Part shown: positions 2,010 to 57,183 of the stretch, in pieces | Position numbering within the stretch: the stretch's first letter is position 1 | Layout of the letters: each line of letters opens with the position of its first letter | Assembly (NCBI GenBank): GCA_944389185.1 | Contig: CALXLL010000003.1 | Span: forward strand, 12,754-76,753 | Direction: 5' to 3' | Source of the DNA: an uncultured Alphaproteobacteria bacterium | GTDB taxonomy: Bacteria; Pseudomonadota; Alphaproteobacteria; Rs-D84 | DNA: 64,000 nucleotides | The notes under the pieces: model-generated | Told to the model about the DNA's origin: nothing | What the model saw: only the letters and a program-made list of their open reading frames with translations | Database searches by the model: none | Translations under genes and position numbers: made by a program

Positions 2010-2086
<77 letters not shown>

Positions 2087-2099
2087 GTTAAATAAAAAG

Positions 2100-2128
2100 A
2101 CGCACCGAAAGGTGTGTTTTTTTATTTT
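2100..2128 (+). terminator. intrinsic terminator after tRNA-fMet
   Basis: ACGCACC-GAAA-GGTGTGT hairpin with a GNRA loop, followed by TTTTTTTATTTT. Confidence 0.7.
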
Positions 2129-2145
2129 AATGAGTTGCTGGATTT

Positions 2146-2232
2146 GAGCCACTGAAACAAAAGTGGTTCAACCGCAGCAAAAAGGCGGAATAACGCCGGT
2201 CGCCAGCAGGCGATTTTGCAAGGTGACGAAGT
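2146..2232 (+). other. tRNA-3'-end-associated hairpin-rich module, copy A (homologous to 57046-57143)
   Basis: Three hairpins: CCACT/AGTGG, GGCG/CGCC, TCGCC/GGCGA. They are separated by the blocks TTCAACCGCAG, GG and CAAGGTGACGAAG. The same architecture with compensatory stem changes is found after tRNA-Val at 57046-57143. Confidence 0.6.
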
Positions 2233-2252
2233 AAATCCATTCCCCGCAACCA
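2233..2252 (+). repeat. 20-nt direct repeat of the tRNA-fMet 3' end (copy of 2067-2086)
   Basis: AAATCCATTCCCCGCAACCA is identical at 2067-2086 (T-loop to CCA of the intact tRNA) and at 2233-2252. Confidence 0.9.
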
Positions 2253-2262
2253 AGATTCAAAC

Positions 2263-2284
2263 CGCAGAAATCTGCGTTTTTTTT
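2263..2284 (+). terminator. intrinsic terminator after the duplicated tRNA 3' end
   Basis: CGCAG-AAAT-CTGCG hairpin followed by a run of 8 T. Confidence 0.6.
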
Positions 2285-2872: not shown

Positions 2873-3277
2873 ATGCATGCAGAAAAATTATCTTTATCTT
2901 TCGGAGTAAATCAAATCTATGATAACGCCGAATTTAATATTTTACCACAAGACAAAGTCGGTATAGTCGGCGTTAACGGTGCCGGTAAAACAACTCTATT
3001 TAAAATAATTCTTGGGCAAATAAAGCCAGATTCAGGCTATATAGACGTTGAAAATAAAACCATTGGATATTTACCTCAGCAGATAGAAATTAAAGATTCT
3101 GATATAACAGTATGGGATTTTTTATTAACAGCCAGACCTATTAAAGCTCTTGAAAAAAAGCAAAATGATTTATACGAAGACCTTTCAAAAAATCCCGAAG
3201 ATAAAGAACTTTTAAACAAATTATCAGATATACAAGAAGAACTTGAATATTATTATGCCCTGAATACGAAAGAATAA
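2873..3277 (+). pseudogene. 3'-truncated ABC-F family ATPase gene (first nucleotide-binding domain only)
   Basis: 134 aa with Walker A GVNGAGKTTLFKII and the ABC-F-like GYLPQQ. Full-length ABC-F proteins carry two ABC domains and are several-fold longer. The frame ends 4 bp from a convergent gene. Confidence 0.7.
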
Positions 3278-31821: not shown

Positions 31822-32019
31822 ATGAAGGTTGGACAAGAAATTGAATCTATAAGAAAAAAACTTGGTTTTTCCGTCGTGTTTATGTGTAACGTTTTTAATG
31901 TTTCTGAACCAGATTATTATAAAATAATTGCCGGTAAATACCGGTTAAATACATATCAATTAATTATGTTTATAGATGCAACTAAAACCCCACTTAAATC
32001 CATAGAAGAATATTTATAA
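31822..32019 (+). CDS. small XRE-family helix-turn-helix protein
   Basis: 65 aa from ATG 31822 (the ORF-track start at 31801 is a TTG inside the terminator tail). IRKKLGFSVVFMCNVFNVSEPDYYKIIAGK fits the HTH_XRE pattern. Confidence 0.55.
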   Translation: MKVGQEIESIRKKLGFSVVFMCNVFNVSEPDYYKIIAGKYRLNTYQLIMFIDATKTPLKSIEEYL

Positions 32020-32042
32020 AAAACCGGCTTTTGCCGGCTTTT

Positions 32043-32045
<3 letters not shown>
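32018..32045. terminator. bidirectional intrinsic terminator (HTH gene / mreB convergent)
   Basis: AAAAAACCGGC-TTTT-GCCGGCTTTTTT. Confidence 0.7.
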
Positions 32046-33101
<1,056 letters not shown>

Positions 33102-33207
33102 CTAGGTAATCGTTTTTTGCACTATAAAGCCTGAGCATAAAAAAATCAAGAGCCCTTAATAAAGTTTTTTTATTTGATTATCTTTATATTGTGTTATTAT
33201 ACGGCTT

Positions 33208-33543
33208 ATGAGAAATACGATAAAAAATCATAAAGATTTCATAAGGTCCGAAACTGATATAGAAGCTAAATCGGCGTTTTTTTTCATTCGTGCAAAACCT
33301 GCTATAAAATCTAAAGACCCCAGGTATGGTTTAATCGTCACCAAAAAGACCTTTAAATTAGCGGTTGAAAGGAATCGTGCTAAACGCTTACTGCGTGATT
33401 GGATACGTTTTAATGAAAAACTTTTATCAGATAATCTTGATTATATTTTCATCGCAAGACGCCCTATTCTTGATGCGGAACGTGAAGATGGTAGAATCGC
33501 TTTGAAAAAAGCTTTAAATTATATAAAAAAACAAAATGCTTAA
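33208..33543 (+). CDS. rnpA: ribonuclease P protein component
   Basis: 111 aa, basic. RNR-type motif ([12 protein letters not shown]). Overlaps yidD as in the conserved rnpA-yidD arrangement. Confidence 0.85.
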
Positions 33544-33754
33544 AAAGTTAGCCGTATATTTAATCAATTTTTATCAGCGGGCAATATCTCCTTTTACCGG
33601 TGGGCGTTGCGCTTGTCGTTATGTGCCTACGTGCAGTGAGTATACCAAGCAAGCCATACAAAAATATGGTTTTTTTCGTGGGGGATGGTTGGGAATTAAA
33701 AGAATATCCAGGTGCAGACCCGGTGGGGGATTTGGGTATGACCCTGTCCCTTGA
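33536..33754 (+). CDS. yidD: membrane protein insertion efficiency factor YidD
   Basis: 72 aa. YQRAISPF...[10 protein letters not shown]...[14 protein letters not shown] is the YidD signature. Confidence 0.9.
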
Positions 33755-33815
33755 CAATGGGTATGATTGTGGTAAAATTCGCTCTATCAGAAAAAAAGAA
33801 TAAAGGATTATAAAA

Positions 33816-34256
33816 ATGTCTTTTCGTGCAACCGTTGAATCTATGTCAAAGATTATGGATGAAATGGGTATTACAGAACTTGATTTGGAACGTCAGTTCT
33901 TATTTGGTGTTTATCGTAAACATATACATTTATCAAAACAGCAAGCTGCTGCGGTTAGTATGCCAAGTTTTCCTACGGCAGAAGCTAAAAGCGCTAATAG
34001 TGAACCGTCTGAACATATAAACGGTTATGCTTTAAAATCACCGATGGTTGGGGTTGCGTATCTGGCGCCAGAACCGGGTGCAGAAACCTTTACGAAAGTC
34101 GGTGCAACAATAAAAGCAGGTGACACGGTGGCTTTGGTTGAAGCTATGAAAACTTTCAATCCTATCAAGTCCGATAAAGACGGTGTGGTTAAAGAAATAC
34201 TTGTATCTGACGGGCAAGCCGTTGAATTTGATCAACCTATTATAATAATAGAATAA
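33816..34256 (+). CDS. accB: biotin carboxyl carrier protein of acetyl-CoA carboxylase
   Basis: 146 aa. The biotinyl-lysine motif EAMKT is in the C-terminal lipoyl-like domain. Directly upstream of accC. Confidence 0.9.
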   Translation: MSFRATVESMSKIMDEMGITELDLERQFLFGVYRKHIHLSKQQAAAVSMPSFPTAEAKSANSEPSEHINGYALKSPMVGVAYLAPEPGAETFTKVGATIKAGDTVALVEAMKTFNPIKSDKDGVVKEILVSDGQAVEFDQPIIIIE

Positions 34257-45237: not shown

Positions 45238-46020
45238 ATGGTTCAAATAATTGCTTTTGCAAATCAAAAAGGCGGTGTTGGTAAAACAACTACCGCAATA
45301 AATCTTAGTGCTTCTTTGGCGGCAATAAAAAAACGTGTGTTGTTGGTTGATTTGGATGCACAAGGTAATGCAGGAACAGGGTTAGGATTCGTCAGGGCTT
45401 CACATAGCCAAAGTGTTTACGGTGTTATTATGGGGACAGCCAAAGTTGCGGATAATATTTTATCTACAGCTGTGCCTGGACTTCATATATTGCCGTCTAG
45501 TCAAGCTTTGTCCGGTGCAGAAGTGGATTTGCTGGATATGGATAATCGTGAATATAGGTTAAGGGATGCTTTAAAAGAAGTTTCCGGTTATTATGATTAT
45601 ATTTTATTAGATTGCCCACCGGCTTTGGGGTATTTAACTTTAAATGCCTTAACGTCTGCAAATCATGTTATAATACCTTTACAGTGTGAGTTTTTTGCAT
45701 TAGAAGGTGTGCAGCATTTAATAAACGCAATTAAAGAAATTAAAATAAAATGGAACCCTAACTTGGATATCCTAGGTGTTCTGTTGACTATGTATGATAA
45801 ACGTTATGGTTTAACCAAGGCTGTTGATGAAGACGTAAGAAACACTTTTGGTGACAAGGTATTTAAAACAGTTGTGCCAAGAAATGTTCGTGTATCTGAA
45901 GCACCAAGTCACGGAAAACCTGCATTGTTTTATGATTTTAATTCTTCTGGTGCGCAAGCTTATCTGCGTGTAGCCACGGAAGTCGTTAATAAACTGGAAA
46001 AGGGGGATTTAAATGTCTAA
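45238..46020 (+). CDS. parA: chromosome partitioning ATPase ParA (Soj)
   Basis: 260 aa with the deviant Walker A NQKGGVGKTTT. Confidence 0.92.
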   Translation: MVQIIAFANQKGGVGKTTTAINLSASLAAIKKRVLLVDLDAQGNAGTGLGFVRASHSQSVYGVIMGTAKVADNILSTAVPGLHILPSSQALSGAEVDLLDMDNREYRLRDALKEVSGYYDYILLDCPPALGYLTLNALTSANHVIIPLQCEFFALEGVQHLINAIKEIKIKWNPNLDILGVLLTMYDKRYGLTKAVDEDVRNTFGDKVFKTVVPRNVRVSEAPSHGKPALFYDFNSSGAQAYLRVATEVVNKLEKGDLNV

Positions 46021-46891
46021 GTTTGGTTTAGGACGCGGATTAGCAGATTTAAAAGAAGAAATAGGTAATGTGCCAGATATATCTATCTTAACTGGTGGGG
46101 AAAGGGTTGTCGTTAAACAGATTCCTTTAATTCAGATTGGGGCGAATCCTGACCAGCCAAGAAAAACTTTTTCTGATACAGATTTAGAAGAGCTTGCTTC
46201 TTCTATTAAAGAAAAGGGGGTCTTGCAACCGATTTTATTAAGGTCCGTTCAAGGAAAACCTTATTTATATGAAATAGTTGCGGGCGAAAGACGTTTTCGT
46301 GCAAGTAAACTTGCTGGTTTAACAGAAATTCCGGCATTAGTAAAAACTATCAGTAATGAAAATGCTATGGAAATAGCGTTAATAGAAAACGTGCAGCGAG
46401 AAAATCTTAATCCAATAGAAGAGGCTGCGGCCTATAAAAATCTTATGGATAAATGCGGATATGATTTAAGTGATGTTTCAAGACTTATCGGTAAATCTGA
46501 AAGTTATATAAAAAACAGTATTCGTTTAGATAAGTTACCGATTTCAGTAAAAACAATGGTAGAGCAGGGTAAAATAAGCGCTTCGCACGCCAGAACCATA
46601 GCGGTTGCGGAAGACCCGGAAGCTATGGCGAATTTGATTATAGAGAAAAATATGTCTGTTGCCGATACGGAAAAAGCCGTTAAAAAAACGAATCGGTCAA
46701 CTAAAAGCCGTTCTTATAATTCAAAAGGTATGGACGATGACTATATTATTGACATCGAATCGAAATTAAAAAGTTCATTAAAAATCCCGGTAAAATTGCA
46801 AGAAATGCGCGGTGGAGCCGGTAAAATAATATTGTCGTTTTCTTCAAGATTACAGTTGCAAGAGCTGGTTGATAAATTAACATCTTTATAA
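46013..46891 (+). CDS. parB: chromosome partitioning protein ParB (Spo0J)
   Basis: 292 aa. LGRGL start, ParB box (IVAGERRFRA) and an HTH region. Overlaps the parA end. Confidence 0.92.
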   Translation: MSKFGLGRGLADLKEEIGNVPDISILTGGERVVVKQIPLIQIGANPDQPRKTFSDTDLEELASSIKEKGVLQPILLRSVQGKPYLYEIVAGERRFRASKLAGLTEIPALVKTISNENAMEIALIENVQRENLNPIEEAAAYKNLMDKCGYDLSDVSRLIGKSESYIKNSIRLDKLPISVKTMVEQGKISASHARTIAVAEDPEAMANLIIEKNMSVADTEKAVKKTNRSTKSRSYNSKGMDDDYIIDIESKLKSSLKIPVKLQEMRGGAGKIILSFSSRLQLQELVDKLTSL

Positions 46892-56877: not shown

Positions 56878-56906
56878 TGGACAAGTGCAAAAAAATGTAT
56901 TATTAT
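56878..56906 (+). promoter_or_regulatory. sigma70-like promoter for tRNA-Val(TAC)
   Basis: TGGACA (56878-56883), 17-nt spacer, TATTAT (56901-56906), 14 nt before the tRNA 5' end. Confidence 0.45.
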
Positions 56907-56920
56907 ATGCACGCTGTTTC

Positions 56921-56997
56921 GGATGTTTAGCTCAGTTGATTAGAGCATCTCGTTTACACCGAGAGGGTCGGGGGTTTGAGTCCCTCAACATCCACCA
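56921..56997 (+). tRNA. tRNA-Val (anticodon TAC)
   Basis: GGATGTTTAGCTCAGTTGATTAGAGCATCTCGTTTACACCGAGAGGGTCGGGGGTTTGAGTCCCTCAACATCCACCA forms a cloverleaf. Anticodon loop TTTACAC. CCA encoded. Confidence 0.88.
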
Positions 56998-57002
56998 GAT
57001 AT

Positions 57003-57027
57003 AAAACCGCAATTTTGCGGTTTTTTT
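57003..57027 (+). terminator. intrinsic terminator after tRNA-Val(TAC)
   Basis: AAAACCGC-AATTTT-GCGG followed by 7 T. Confidence 0.7.
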
Positions 57028-57045
57028 ATTTAACGAAAAGGACGA

Positions 57046-57143
57046 AAACCCCCGAAAAAGGGGGTTGAACCGTAGACACAAGGCAGACGGAAGTATGCCG
57101 GTTTGCAAAGCAAATGTGTCAAGGTGGCGAAGCAGTCCCGGGT
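57046..57143 (+). other. tRNA-3'-end-associated hairpin-rich module, copy B (homologous to 2146-2232)
   Basis: Three hairpins: CCCCC/GGGGG, GGCA/TGCC, TTTGC/GCAAA. They are separated by the blocks TTGAACCGTAG, GG and CAAGGTGGCGAAG, then a degenerate T-arm remnant AGTCCCGGGT. Confidence 0.6.
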
Positions 57144-57183
57144 ATCCACCAGATATAAAACCGCAAAATTGCGGTTTTTTTAT
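57144..57183 (+). repeat. 40-nt direct repeat of the tRNA-Val(TAC) 3' end plus its terminator (copy of 56990-57029)
   Basis: ATCCACCAGATATAAAACCGCAA..TTGCGGTTTTTTTAT occurs twice. The only differences are 2 nt in the hairpin loop (AATTTT versus AAAATT). Confidence 0.9.

What the first reader, a model, noticed from the sequence alone, without database searches (positions are those of the whole stretch)
2146..2232. Conserved hairpin-rich module shared by two different tRNA loci, with compensatory base changes
By-eye alignment of 2146-2232 with 57046-57143 shows the same order of elements. Hairpin 1 is CCACT..AGTGG versus CCCCC..GGGGG. A conserved linker follows, TTCAACCGCAG versus TTGAACCGTAG. 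Hairpin 2 is GGCG..CGCC versus GGCA..TGCC, followed by an invariant GG. Hairpin 3 is TCGCC-AGCA-GGCGA versus TTTGC-AAA-GCAAA. Next comes the conserved block CAAGGTGACGAAG versus CAAGGTGGCGAAG, then a copy of the 3' end of whichever tRNA lies upstream. Six base pairs differ between the copies yet remain paired, while the linkers are conserved in sequence. That pattern is expected for a structured RNA or a protein-recognised structured DNA (for example attP arms of related elements), not for neutral spacer. I know of no described element with this architecture (tRNA, terminator, three-hairpin module, tRNA 3'-end mimic, terminator).
Basis: seen in the sequence. Interest (0 to 1): 0.75.

Follow-up and report, generated by a model that had tools for sequence, protein, structure and literature searches.

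The report
RtT-like structured trailer behind tRNA genes
Behind two tRNA genes sits a real, strongly conserved folded element that splits a copy of the tRNA's own tail; it is an undescribed distant cousin of the long-known but still unexplained E. coli "RtT" RNA rather than a wholly new kind of thing.

Summary
Each copy is a fold-back of the upstream tRNA's 3' end. It consists of a decayed inverted copy of tRNA positions ~49-76, a loop, the T-stem 5' strand plus TTCG, a 62-75-nt core, and then the tRNA tail from T-loop A58 to CCA. A terminator precedes and follows the unit.

The core is a three-way junction followed by an N-CGAAG-N' mini-hairpin. A covariance model finds 32 strong copies in the window and fetched loci. 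The genome records that carry them are titled uncultured Alphaproteobacteria or proteobacteria. All are co-oriented with a tRNA gene, and 8 isoacceptor types are represented. Covariation is strong: 13 of 21 pairs change on both sides.

The module is absent behind the same tRNA-Val in related species. No recombinase lies nearby, and there are no phage or plasmid matches.

The architecture is not undescribed. The E. coli tyrT/rttR 178-bp repeats (Rfam RtT, RF00391) have the same scaffold and the same A58 junction, and my model detects them weakly. RF00391 itself does not hit these copies.

Best reading: a divergent RtT-class tRNA-operon trailer RNA. The main rival is a miniature T-loop-targeted mobile element. 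Function remains unknown.

The parts
2010..2086 (+). tRNA-fMet (CAT), the gene whose 3' end is copied; promoter-like TTGACA-17-TAAACT at 1965-1993
   Evidence: ARAGORN; Rfam tRNA 63.9 bits; promoter scan
2087..2128 (+). trailer and first terminator-like hairpin with T-run (T1)
   Evidence: sequence read (CGCACC-GAAA-GGTGTG then T7); the simple scan did not call it
2134..2153 (+). left arm (LA), GTTGC-T-GGATTT-GAGCCACT: decayed reverse complement of the tRNA-fMet 3' end. It pairs with 2162-2169 (hairpin 1), with AAATCC at 2233-2238 and with GCAAC at 2246-2250
2154..2169 (+). hairpin-1 loop (2154-2161) and RA1 (2162-2169, AGTGGTTC), which is the T-stem 5' strand plus the start of the T-loop of tRNA-fMet
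   Evidence: (AGTGGTTCAA repeated at 2162)
2170..2232 (+). core. AACCGCAG; P2 2178-2182/2214-2218; P3 2184-2187/2194-2197; GG; P4 2200-2204/2209-2213; CAAGGTG; mini-hairpin ACGAAGT 2226-2232. P1' is ACC 2171-2173 paired with GGT 2222-2224
   Evidence: CM R1 65.9 bits; covariation; folds
2233..2252 (+). RA2: exact 20-nt copy of the tRNA-fMet 3' end from the T-loop A to CCA (AAATCCATTCCCCGCAACCA)
2253..2284 (+). second terminator (T2), hairpin 2263-2276 plus T8
56921..56997 (+). tRNA-Val (TAC); promoter-like TGGACA-17-TATTAT at 56878-56906
56998..57029 (+). trailer and terminator T1 (hairpin 57003-57024)
57040..57067 (+). LA (GGAC-GAAAA-CCCCC), loop GAAAAA, and RA1 GGGGGTTG, which is the T-stem 5' strand of tRNA-Val plus the start of the T-loop
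57068..57133 (+). core. AACCGTAG; P2 57076-57080/57115-57119; P3 57082-57099 (GNRA loop GGAA); GG; P4 57102-57114; CAAGGTG; mini-hairpin GCGAAGC 57127-57133
   Evidence: CM R1 96 bits
57134..57151 (+). RA2: diverged copy of the tRNA-Val 3' end (AGTCCC-GGGTA-TCCACCA versus AGTCCC-TCAACA-TCCACCA)
57152..57181 (+). terminator T2, near-identical to T1 except that the hairpin loop is inverted (AAAATT versus AATTTT)

Best explanation
The two modules belong to an unannotated family of RtT-class tRNA-operon trailer elements found in uncultured gut and rumen Alphaproteobacteria.

Anatomy (shown). After the tRNA and a first terminator comes a fold-back built from the tRNA's own tail. It has a decayed inverted copy of tRNA positions ~49-76 (LA), a short loop, the T-stem 5' strand plus TTCG (RA1), a 62-75-nt core, and then the tRNA tail from T-loop A58 to CCA (RA2). 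A second terminator follows. LA pairs with RA1 (hairpin 1) and with the start of RA2 (closing helix). The core therefore projects from the middle of a reconstituted T-arm duplex. The core is a three-way junction (P1' ACC/GGU, internal loop GYAG/CAA, P2, P3, GG, P4) followed by an N-CGAAG-N' mini-hairpin.

Mechanism (inferred by analogy with E. coli RtT, which has the same scaffold and is a documented processing product of the tyrT transcript). The + strand is transcribed by read-through from the strong tRNA promoter. It is cut out by the same nucleases that mature the tRNA, because RA2 and its trailer duplicate the tRNA's 3' end and trailer. The result accumulates as a stable RNA of roughly 120-150 nt ending in the tRNA-like ...CCA tail.

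Most speculative step. The invariant junction nucleotides form a protein-binding platform that presents a tRNA 3'-end/T-arm mimic to a factor that reads uncharged tRNA ends or processes tRNA. This was the suggestion made for RtT and the stringent response.

New copies arise rarely, by a duplication or recombination event at the T-loop, which explains presence/absence between species and tandem arrays.
For: Structure. CM R1 finds 32 copies at 59-99 bits. Of cells, 91.4% are paired against 76.2% in shuffles; 13 of 21 pairs change on both sides; the covariation score is 0.360 against 0.119 in shuffles and at most 0.10 in slid controls. The unpaired cells are nearly all tandem sheared G.A pairs in the context 5'-CGAA/UGAG, and GNRA loops occur in P3.

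Strand. G.T wobbles in LA:RA pairing fall on the + strand. The orientation always follows the tRNA gene. In the window the two copies lie on opposite sides of the GC-skew minimum, so orientation does not follow replication.

Context. Copies lie 69-111 nt after fMet, Met, Val, Glu, His, Ser-GGA and Ser-TGA tRNAs, and 872 nt after a Gln tRNA. RA2 copies that tRNA from A58 to CCA.

Conservation. Species pairs with 78-88% coding nucleotide identity have cores 98-100% identical and T1+LA+hairpin 1 91-93% identical, while DNA downstream of RA2 is ~66-68% identical in two of the three pairs and 97% in L001/L006.

Link to RtT. E. coli tyrT/rttR units show LA, loop, AAGGTTCGA, a hairpin-rich core containing GCGAAGC, then A58..CCA. 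The annotated sRNA rttR ends exactly at that CCA. The RF00391 consensus closes with the same LA:RA2 helix, and the MFE fold has the same topology. R1 hits all four E. coli units at 15-18.5 bits, E 4e-4 to 3e-3, with the next best hit at 3.4 bits.

Literature. RtT is released from the tyrT transcript by processing (PMC3318445, citing Bosl and Kersten 1991; bioRxiv 10.1101/2024.07.17.603846). RtT-family RNAs next to Asn and Lys tRNA genes are expressed in Actinobacillus (PMC4986893).
Against: There are no expression data for these organisms. A terminator-like hairpin (T1) stands between the tRNA and the module, and no promoter-like site lies between them, so transcription depends on read-through. 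G-U pairs are rare in the core (about 5 of 501 cells). The fold is equally good with DNA parameters (z -4.26), and GCGAAGC is the classic ultra-stable DNA mini-hairpin (PMC13037366), so folded single-stranded DNA is not excluded. RF00391 does not detect any copy even at E<=10, so homology with RtT rests on shared architecture plus a weak CM match. Several features look like mobile-element behaviour that an RNA-gene model does not itself explain: presence/absence between species, tandem arrays of different units each ending in a T-loop/3' fragment, and whole-unit duplications flanking 1.7-2.5 kb. The function of RtT itself is unknown.
Confidence: 0.55

Rival explanations
1. It is a miniature, non-autonomous mobile element that integrates site-specifically into the T-loop (between G57 and A58) of tRNA genes. 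The element would be [A58..CCA copy + T1 + LA + loop + RA1 + core]. It restores the tRNA 3' end and displaces the original tail (RA2 + T2). In a folded single strand, LA splints RA1 and RA2 into a T-arm duplex that mimics the target, with the core as the recombinase-binding module. This would resemble integron attC or the CTX-phage attP. The enzyme would act in trans.
For: Direct repeats of the tRNA segment start exactly in the T-loop and often include the terminator. In the Val locus the repeat is 51 nt, and T1 resembles T2 in L001 and L008. Four related species have empty tRNA-Val sites. Tandem arrays contain three core types, each followed by a progressively truncated T-loop/3' fragment. 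In L009 the duplicated unit ends exactly at the core|A58 junction. In L027 an 800-nt cargo lies between the tRNA and T1-LA. The unit T1..core is more conserved than neighbouring coding DNA. The DNA fold is as good as the RNA fold, G-U pairs are few, and the GCGAAGC DNA mini-hairpin is present (PMC13037366).
Against: No integrase, transposase or reverse transcriptase lies near any of ~30 copies. There is no match in phage, plasmid or viral collections. The two copies within one genome are old, at 76% identity, so there has been no recent burst. The fMet copy is syntenic across at least 8 genomes. Orientation does not track replication direction. The genes inside the duplicated segments are housekeeping-like (TsaC, peptidase S41). 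The E. coli counterpart is a documented RNA.
Confidence: 0.22
2. It is the decayed right-end (attR/P-arm) remnant of prophages or genomic islands that once integrated into these tRNA genes through classical tyrosine integrases.
For: A tRNA 3' direct repeat beginning in the T-loop is the classic integrase signature (established knowledge; Williams 2002, recalled). tRNA loci here are variable hotspots.
Against: The unit has the same ~150-nt size and layout behind 8 different tRNAs in many genomes, which is not the pattern of random deletion end-points. The conserved part is base-paired with compensatory changes, which is not expected of double-stranded arm-binding sites. The T-stem 5' strand and the A58 tail are separated by the core, whereas a normal attR has them contiguous. 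No phage or plasmid carries the sequence.
Confidence: 0.05
3. It is a REP/PATE-like hairpin repeat mobilised as single-stranded DNA by a Y1 HUH enzyme (RAYT or IS200/IS605 TnpA), inserting 3' of the T-loop TTCG.
For: A conserved G(Y)AG tetranucleotide sits at the 5' foot of a hairpin. Insertion appears to occur 3' of a fixed short target with no inverted terminal repeats. One paper notes similarity between rtT and BIME-like repeats (PMC2965389).
Against: Copies occur only behind tRNA genes and are not dispersed: the CM finds just two in 64 kb. No tnpA or RAYT gene is seen in any locus. Insertion of the core alone does not explain LA or the duplicated tail. Orientation is not tied to the lagging-strand template.
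Confidence: 0.05
4. The core is a small self-cleaving ribozyme or intron-like insert in a T-loop.
For: It is a compact three-way junction with invariant unpaired nucleotides, placed exactly at one phosphodiester of the T-loop.
Against: It matches no Rfam ribozyme or intron even at E<=10. It interrupts a pseudo-fragment rather than a functional tRNA, and removing it would leave only a plain hairpin.
Confidence: 0.03

Closest known systems
RtT RNA / rttR and the 178-bp repeats of the E. coli tyrT operon (Rfam RF00391)
   Same: It lies behind a tRNA gene in the same orientation. Each unit ends with the tRNA tail from A58 to CCA. It is preceded by a decayed inverted copy of the tRNA 3' end, a loop, the T-stem 5' strand + TTCGA, and a hairpin-rich core that includes GCGAAGC. 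The closing helix is LA:RA2. Units can be tandem.
   Different: The core sequence and its inner topology differ: here two hairpins are enclosed by P1'/P2, whereas in E. coli the hairpins open directly into the multiloop. RF00391 gives no hit. Here a terminator separates the tRNA from the unit. The family serves at least 8 tRNA types in Alphaproteobacteria, whereas the E. coli repeats serve tyrT.
att sites of tyrosine integrases that target the T-loop of tRNA genes, with tandem accretion and cis-mobilisable elements (CIMEs)
   Same: Direct repeats of the tRNA 3' segment begin in the T-loop. The tRNA is restored and the old tail displaced. Arrays occur at one tRNA.
   Different: No integrase is present and no cargo in most copies. 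The unit is only ~150 nt. The T-stem 5' strand and the tail are separated by a folded core. An inverted copy of the target is present.
Folded single-stranded recombination sites: integron attC and the CTX-phage attP(+)
   Same: It is an imperfect palindrome whose two arms rebuild a duplex target site with extrahelical material. Structure is conserved more than stem sequence. Units are added next to a fixed site.
   Different: No IntI or Xer-type context is present. The core has invariant sequence motifs. The target is a tRNA T-loop. Single-strand recombination is entirely untested here.
REP/BIME elements with RAYT, and IS200/IS605-derived PATEs
   Same: They are extragenic, terminator-adjacent hairpins with a conserved GTAG-like foot. 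A paper reports similarity between rtT and BIME-like repeats (PMC2965389).
   Different: The element is not dispersed, is restricted to tRNA trailers, and no HUH gene was seen.
sRNAs cut from tRNA trailers (3'ETS-leuZ) and tRNA-like 3' ends (viral TLS, mascRNA)
   Same: The RNA would be made as a by-product of tRNA transcription and processing, or would use a tRNA-like end for processing.
   Different: Those lack the inverted copy, the T-loop-split layout and the conserved three-way junction.

Membership tests
RtT RNA (Rfam RF00391) | Scores at or above the family gathering threshold (45 bits) | tested here: not met
   No RtT hit in the window at gathering or at E<=10. There is none in 10 module-bearing loci at E<=10. 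The E. coli units score 133-137 bits.
RtT RNA (Rfam RF00391) | Lies in a tRNA operon, downstream of and co-oriented with a tRNA gene | tested here: met
RtT RNA (Rfam RF00391) | Unit ends with a copy of the 3' end of that tRNA (last ~19 nt, A58 to CCA) | tested here: met
   E. coli. This family: (19-20 of 19-20 nt identical in most copies; the Val copy in the window is diverged).
RtT RNA (Rfam RF00391) | Closing helix between an upstream complementary segment and the tRNA-derived tail, enclosing several hairpins | tested here: met
   RF00391 consensus structure; folds; pairing table
RtT RNA (Rfam RF00391) | Detectable sequence or structure similarity of the core | tested here: inconclusive
   CM R1 from the new family hits all four E. 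coli units at 15-18.5 bits, E 4e-4 to 3e-3 in 2.2 kb. The register differs and the reverse search fails.
RtT RNA (Rfam RF00391) | Released as a discrete RNA by processing of the tRNA transcript | not testable with these tools
   No transcript data are available for these uncultured bacteria.
Integrase-type integrated element at a tRNA gene | Insert flanked by direct repeats of the tRNA 3' segment | tested here: met
Integrase-type integrated element at a tRNA gene | Integrase or recombinase gene within or next to the insert | tested here: not met
   ORF survey around all copies; Pfam scan of candidate ORFs
Integrase-type integrated element at a tRNA gene | Same sequence present as attP in a phage, plasmid or ICE | tested here: not met
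Integron attC / cassette array | IntI integrase and attI adjacent; R and L boxes with GTTRRRY | tested here: not met
   The neighbours are lpxK, a DUF374 gene, ybaB and pnp. No GTTRRRY boxes are seen at the junctions.
REP/REPIN or PATE | Many dispersed extragenic copies plus a RAYT/TnpA(Y1) gene | tested here: not met
   Only two copies in 64 kb, both behind tRNAs. No such ORF is found in any locus. Whole genomes were not available.
tRNA / tmRNA | Cloverleaf or tmRNA recognised by ARAGORN or Rfam | tested here: not met

The most novel reading that the evidence does not exclude
RtT-type units, including the E. coli tyrT repeats, are a superfamily of miniature mobile cassettes that insert at one phosphodiester of the tRNA T-loop (G57|A58). 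They would use a folded single strand in which an inverted copy of the target splints the two halves of the site, while a conserved three-way junction recruits a trans-acting recombinase. This would be a tRNA-anchored, integron-like accretion system.
Probability: 0.2. Interest if true: 0.8.

Novelty: new variant of a known kind. Interest (0 to 1): 0.5.

Why it matters
RtT has been in the E. coli gene list since 1991 with no known mode of action. This family provides the comparative data that RtT lacked. It gives dozens of divergent copies behind at least 8 different tRNAs, a covariation-proven fold, invariant junction nucleotides to mutate, and a precise rule: the core always splits a tRNA tail at the T-loop and is clamped by an inverted copy. 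That rule turns "a by-product of tRNA processing" into two sharp, testable models, namely a tRNA-end-mimicking RNA or a T-loop-targeted mini-cassette. It also shows that the class spans Alpha- and Gammaproteobacteria. In practice, these units break metagenome assemblies at tRNA genes and are not annotated by Rfam.

Tried and rejected
**Rfam.** I ran gathering and permissive scans of the window and of 10 loci. No family matched, including RtT, ribozymes, YrlA and tmRNA.

**Phage, plasmid and viral searches.** These covered the module and both core types. They found nothing, or only chance hits in coding DNA.

**Metagenome scan.** Eight of 29 hits were chance matches inside genes (CAAGGTGCCGAAG, no hairpins) and were discarded.

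**Search for a partner enzyme.** ORFs within 3-4 kb of every copy are housekeeping genes. The candidates tested by Pfam were GIY-YIG, peptidase S41, lipocalin, DUF374 or unassigned.

**Palindromic-duplication idea.** I tested whether T1 is the reverse complement of T2 with an inverted tail. Only the hairpin loop is inverted in the Val locus and the flanks are direct, so the idea is rejected (sequence).

**Replication-strand bias** as evidence for single-stranded DNA: rejected, because the two window copies lie on opposite sides of the GC-skew minimum.

**Plain MAFFT alignment of cores** misaligned the middle, so I replaced it with a CM-guided alignment.

**Simple scripted search for LA:RA pairing** fails where arms carry bulges. 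About 17 of 29 distinct copies show the clean pattern. I read several of the others (L010, L020, L021, L023, L026, L027, L030) by eye; they keep the arms with a bulge or with mismatches.

**Literature.** The Bosl and Kersten 1991 paper is not held in the library.

Full report
**1. What is there**

tRNA-fMet lies at 2010-2086 and tRNA-Val(TAC) at 56921-56997, both on the + strand. Each has a sigma-70-like promoter. Each is followed by a terminator-like hairpin (T1), the module, a copy of the tRNA tail and a second terminator (T2).

Exact matches to the two conserved blocks occur nowhere else in the window. The other three tRNA genes in the window (Thr, Val-GAC, Cys) have no such trailer.

**2. 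Fuller anatomy**

Folding and reading the sequence show more than three hairpins.

- The core begins AACCGYAG.
- A 3-bp helix (ACC/GGU) and an internal loop (GYAG/CAA) lead into P2. P2 is 5 bp and differs at four of its five pairs between the two copies (CAAAA/UUUUG versus ACACA/UGUGU).
- P2 encloses P3 (GGCG.../...CGCC), an invariant GG, and P4.
- After CAAGGUG comes a mini-hairpin N-CGAAG-N' whose closing pair covaries (A-U versus G-C).

The sequence after the core is the same tRNA from T-loop A57/A58 to CCA. The core therefore sits inside the T-loop of a tRNA 3' fragment.

The 5' arm of hairpin 1 and the bases before it (GTTGC-T-GGATTT-GAGCCACT at 2134-2153) are a decayed reverse complement of the tRNA 3' end. 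This left arm (LA) pairs with both halves of the split fragment.

**3. It is a family**

A pattern scan of one genome per species found 8 loci. All are in MAGs of uncultured Alphaproteobacteria or "Candidatus Enterousia", and 7 of the 8 lie behind tRNA-fMet; L002 has no tRNA call. A metagenome scan found 29 loci: 21 true members and 8 chance hits in coding DNA that I discarded.

True members lie behind tRNA-fMet, a 75-nt tRNA-Met, Glu-CTC, His, Ser-GGA, Ser-TGA and Gln. With the window's Val this makes 8 isoacceptor types. The usual distance is 69-111 nt after the tRNA.

In each member:

- RA2 copies the local tRNA from A58 to CCA, with 19-20 of 19-20 nt identical in most.
- RA1 is a slightly diverged copy of the T-stem 5' strand plus TTCG.
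- LA is a decayed reverse complement. In several loci it starts exactly at TGG, the complement of CCA.

In tRNA-Glu, whose T-loop is TTCGATT, the flanks are ...TTCG and ATTCC.... This places the junction between positions 57 and 58.

**4. Statistics of the fold**

I built a covariance model from nine same-layout copies, using a structure I specified. It finds 32 copies at 59-99 bits and two weak variants in L004.

On the model-guided alignment of 25 distinct sequences:

| Measure | Observed | Control |
|---|---|---|
| Cells paired | 91.4% | 76.2% in shuffles |
| Pairs changed on both sides | 13 of 21 | 9.0 in shuffles; reached in 0 of 500 |
| Covariation score | 0.360 | 0.119 in shuffles; at most 0.10 when partners are slid |

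The alignment was fitted to the structure, which inflates pairing somewhat, but the slid controls and double changes are decisive. Nearly all non-paired cells are tandem G.A/A.G in the context 5'-CGAA/UGAG, in P2 and P4 of one subtype. P3 often carries GNRA loops.

G-U pairs are rare (about 5 of 501 cells). In the LA:RA helices the G.T wobbles are on the + strand, so that strand, the tRNA sense strand, is the one that folds.

**5. Evolutionary behaviour**

The fMet copy is syntenic (lpxK, DUF374 gene, tRNA-fMet, module) in the window and in L001, L003-L007. L008, whose tRNA-fMet lies at the very start of the fetched stretch, shares the downstream genes instead.

In species pairs whose DUF374 gene is 78-88% identical in nucleotides:

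- the core is 98-100% identical;
- T1+LA+hairpin 1 are 91-93% identical;
- DNA beyond RA2 is ~66-68% identical in two of the three pairs and 97% in L001/L006.

This means either strong constraint or recent exchange.

Behind tRNA-Val the module is lineage-specific. Four relatives (YbaB 63-69% identical, tRNA-Val identical or differing at one acceptor-stem base pair) have only the tRNA and one terminator.

Some genomes carry arrays. L004 has three core types in tandem, each followed by a progressively truncated T-loop/3' fragment. L007 lacks ~290 nt of this array, between two copies of hairpin 1.

A second core family, "type C", occupies the same LA-loop-RA1-core-RA2 scaffold behind tRNA-Met in L037.

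Whole units are duplicated around 1.7 kb in L009, where the right repeat boundary falls exactly at the core|A58 junction, and around 2.5 kb in L006/L002. L027 has an 800-nt insert with an unassigned 162-aa ORF between the tRNA and T1-LA.

No recombinase, transposase or reverse transcriptase lies near any copy. Nothing similar is in the phage, plasmid or viral collections. The window itself is core genome at 36.7% GC. The two copies lie on opposite sides of the GC-skew minimum.

**6. Comparison with what is known**

No Rfam family matches. However, the E. coli K-12 tyrT locus shows the same architecture. Each 178-bp unit consists of:

- a trailer;
- GGGGAAGGATGAGAAGCTTC, a decayed reverse complement of tRNA-Tyr positions 49-69;
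- the loop GACC;
- AAGGTTCGA;
- a hairpin-rich core that includes GCGAAGC;
- AATCCTTCCCCCACCACCA, which is A58 to CCA76.

The annotated sRNA rttR ends exactly at that CCA. Rfam RtT (RF00391) hits the four units at 133-137 bits, and its consensus is closed by the LA:RA2 helix. The MFE fold has the same topology. My model detects all four units at 15-18.5 bits (E 4e-4 to 3e-3), with the next best hit at 3.4 bits.

The element is therefore not a member of RF00391 as that family is defined. It is the same kind of object, with weak evidence of common descent.

RtT is reported as an RNA released from the tyrT transcript by processing. It may modulate the stringent response, and its mode of action is unknown (PMC3318445; 10.1101/2024.07.17.603846). 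RtT-family RNAs next to Asn and Lys tRNA genes are expressed in Actinobacillus (PMC4986893). Similarity of rtT to BIME-like repeats has been noted (PMC2965389).

**7. How it most likely works**

*Shown:* the fold, the T-loop-split fold-back scaffold, the tRNA linkage and orientation, strong conservation, and the shared architecture with RtT.

*Inferred:* the + strand is transcribed by read-through of T1 from the tRNA promoter. It is cut out by the tRNA-maturing nucleases, because RA2 and its trailer duplicate the tRNA's end and trailer. It persists as a stable RNA clamped by LA.

*Speculative:* the invariant junction presents a tRNA-end mimic to a protein.

I put 0.55 on the RtT-class RNA reading. 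The main rival, at about 0.2, is a miniature T-loop-targeted cassette that uses a folded single strand as its recombination site. That rival explains the arrays, the duplicated terminators, the empty sites, the scarcity of G-U pairs and the GCGAAGC DNA-type mini-hairpin (PMC13037366). It lacks any enzyme, any free form and any recent burst. The two readings are not mutually exclusive.

**8. Verdict**

The finding is real and well structured. It is unannotated and lies outside the Rfam family, but it is a new variant of a known, poorly understood kind. Interest is moderate (0.5). It gives RtT a comparative framework and a sharp structural rule to test.

Noticed in passing
L013 5381-5740; L009 (minus strand) 2655-2310; L037 6099-6467; L010 1595 onward: Small GIY-YIG genes (~80 aa, PF01541) with long, self-complementary GC-rich flanks (TCCGTCTTYGCT...AGACGGA) are inserted exactly after the CCA of a tRNA (L013) or of the RA2 tRNA-tail copy (L009, L010, L037). 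This looks like a second kind of cassette that targets tRNA 3' ends.
   Followed up: partly
L037 5800-5938; L004 (minus) 4700-4575 and 4450-4290; L003 1950-2035; L007 1090-1160: A second structured core family ('type C': AAAATTTGTAT...ACTACAAATTTGCGCGCAG, a covarying hairpin, then GAGCG|AATCC) sits in the same inverted-copy/T-loop-split scaffold. Its tail resembles the 3' part of E. coli RtT (GCGCGCAGCGCTGAGT|AATCC).
   Followed up: partly
window 57003-57024 versus 57157-57178: The two terminators flanking the Val module are identical except that the hairpin loop is inverted (AATTTT versus AAAATT). This is the kind of change made by template switching within a hairpin.
   Followed up: no
L039-L046 (contig ends): Many metagenome contigs carrying the same or a close YbaB gene end within or just after tRNA-Val or the module. 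The duplicated tRNA tail and terminator seem to break assemblies.
   Followed up: no
L006/L002 (one contig, JAGCVZ010000013.1, about 62.1-64.9 kb); L009 960-2791: Whole units (T1+LA+hairpin 1+core) occur twice as direct repeats. In one case they flank 2.5 kb carrying a peptidase S41 gene and a 249-aa gene. In the other they flank 1.7 kb carrying a GIY-YIG gene, a small ORF and a TsaC/YrdC-like gene.
   Followed up: partly
window 2873-3277: The ABC-F type ATPase ORF is only 134 aa here, against 537 aa at the syntenic position in L008 (683-2296). It is probably a truncated gene next to the fMet module.
   Followed up: no
L048 2960-3230; L050 3000-3200: Long GC-rich, hairpin-rich non-coding stretches follow the empty tRNA-Val sites in two relatives. 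They were not identified.
   Followed up: no
window about 32000-34000, and 45238-46891: The cumulative GC skew has its minimum near 33 kb. mnmG (25.1-26.8 kb) and parA/parB (45.2-46.9 kb) are nearby, so the window may span the replication origin region. virB4-like type IV secretion genes lie at 3.9-6.6 kb.
   Followed up: no
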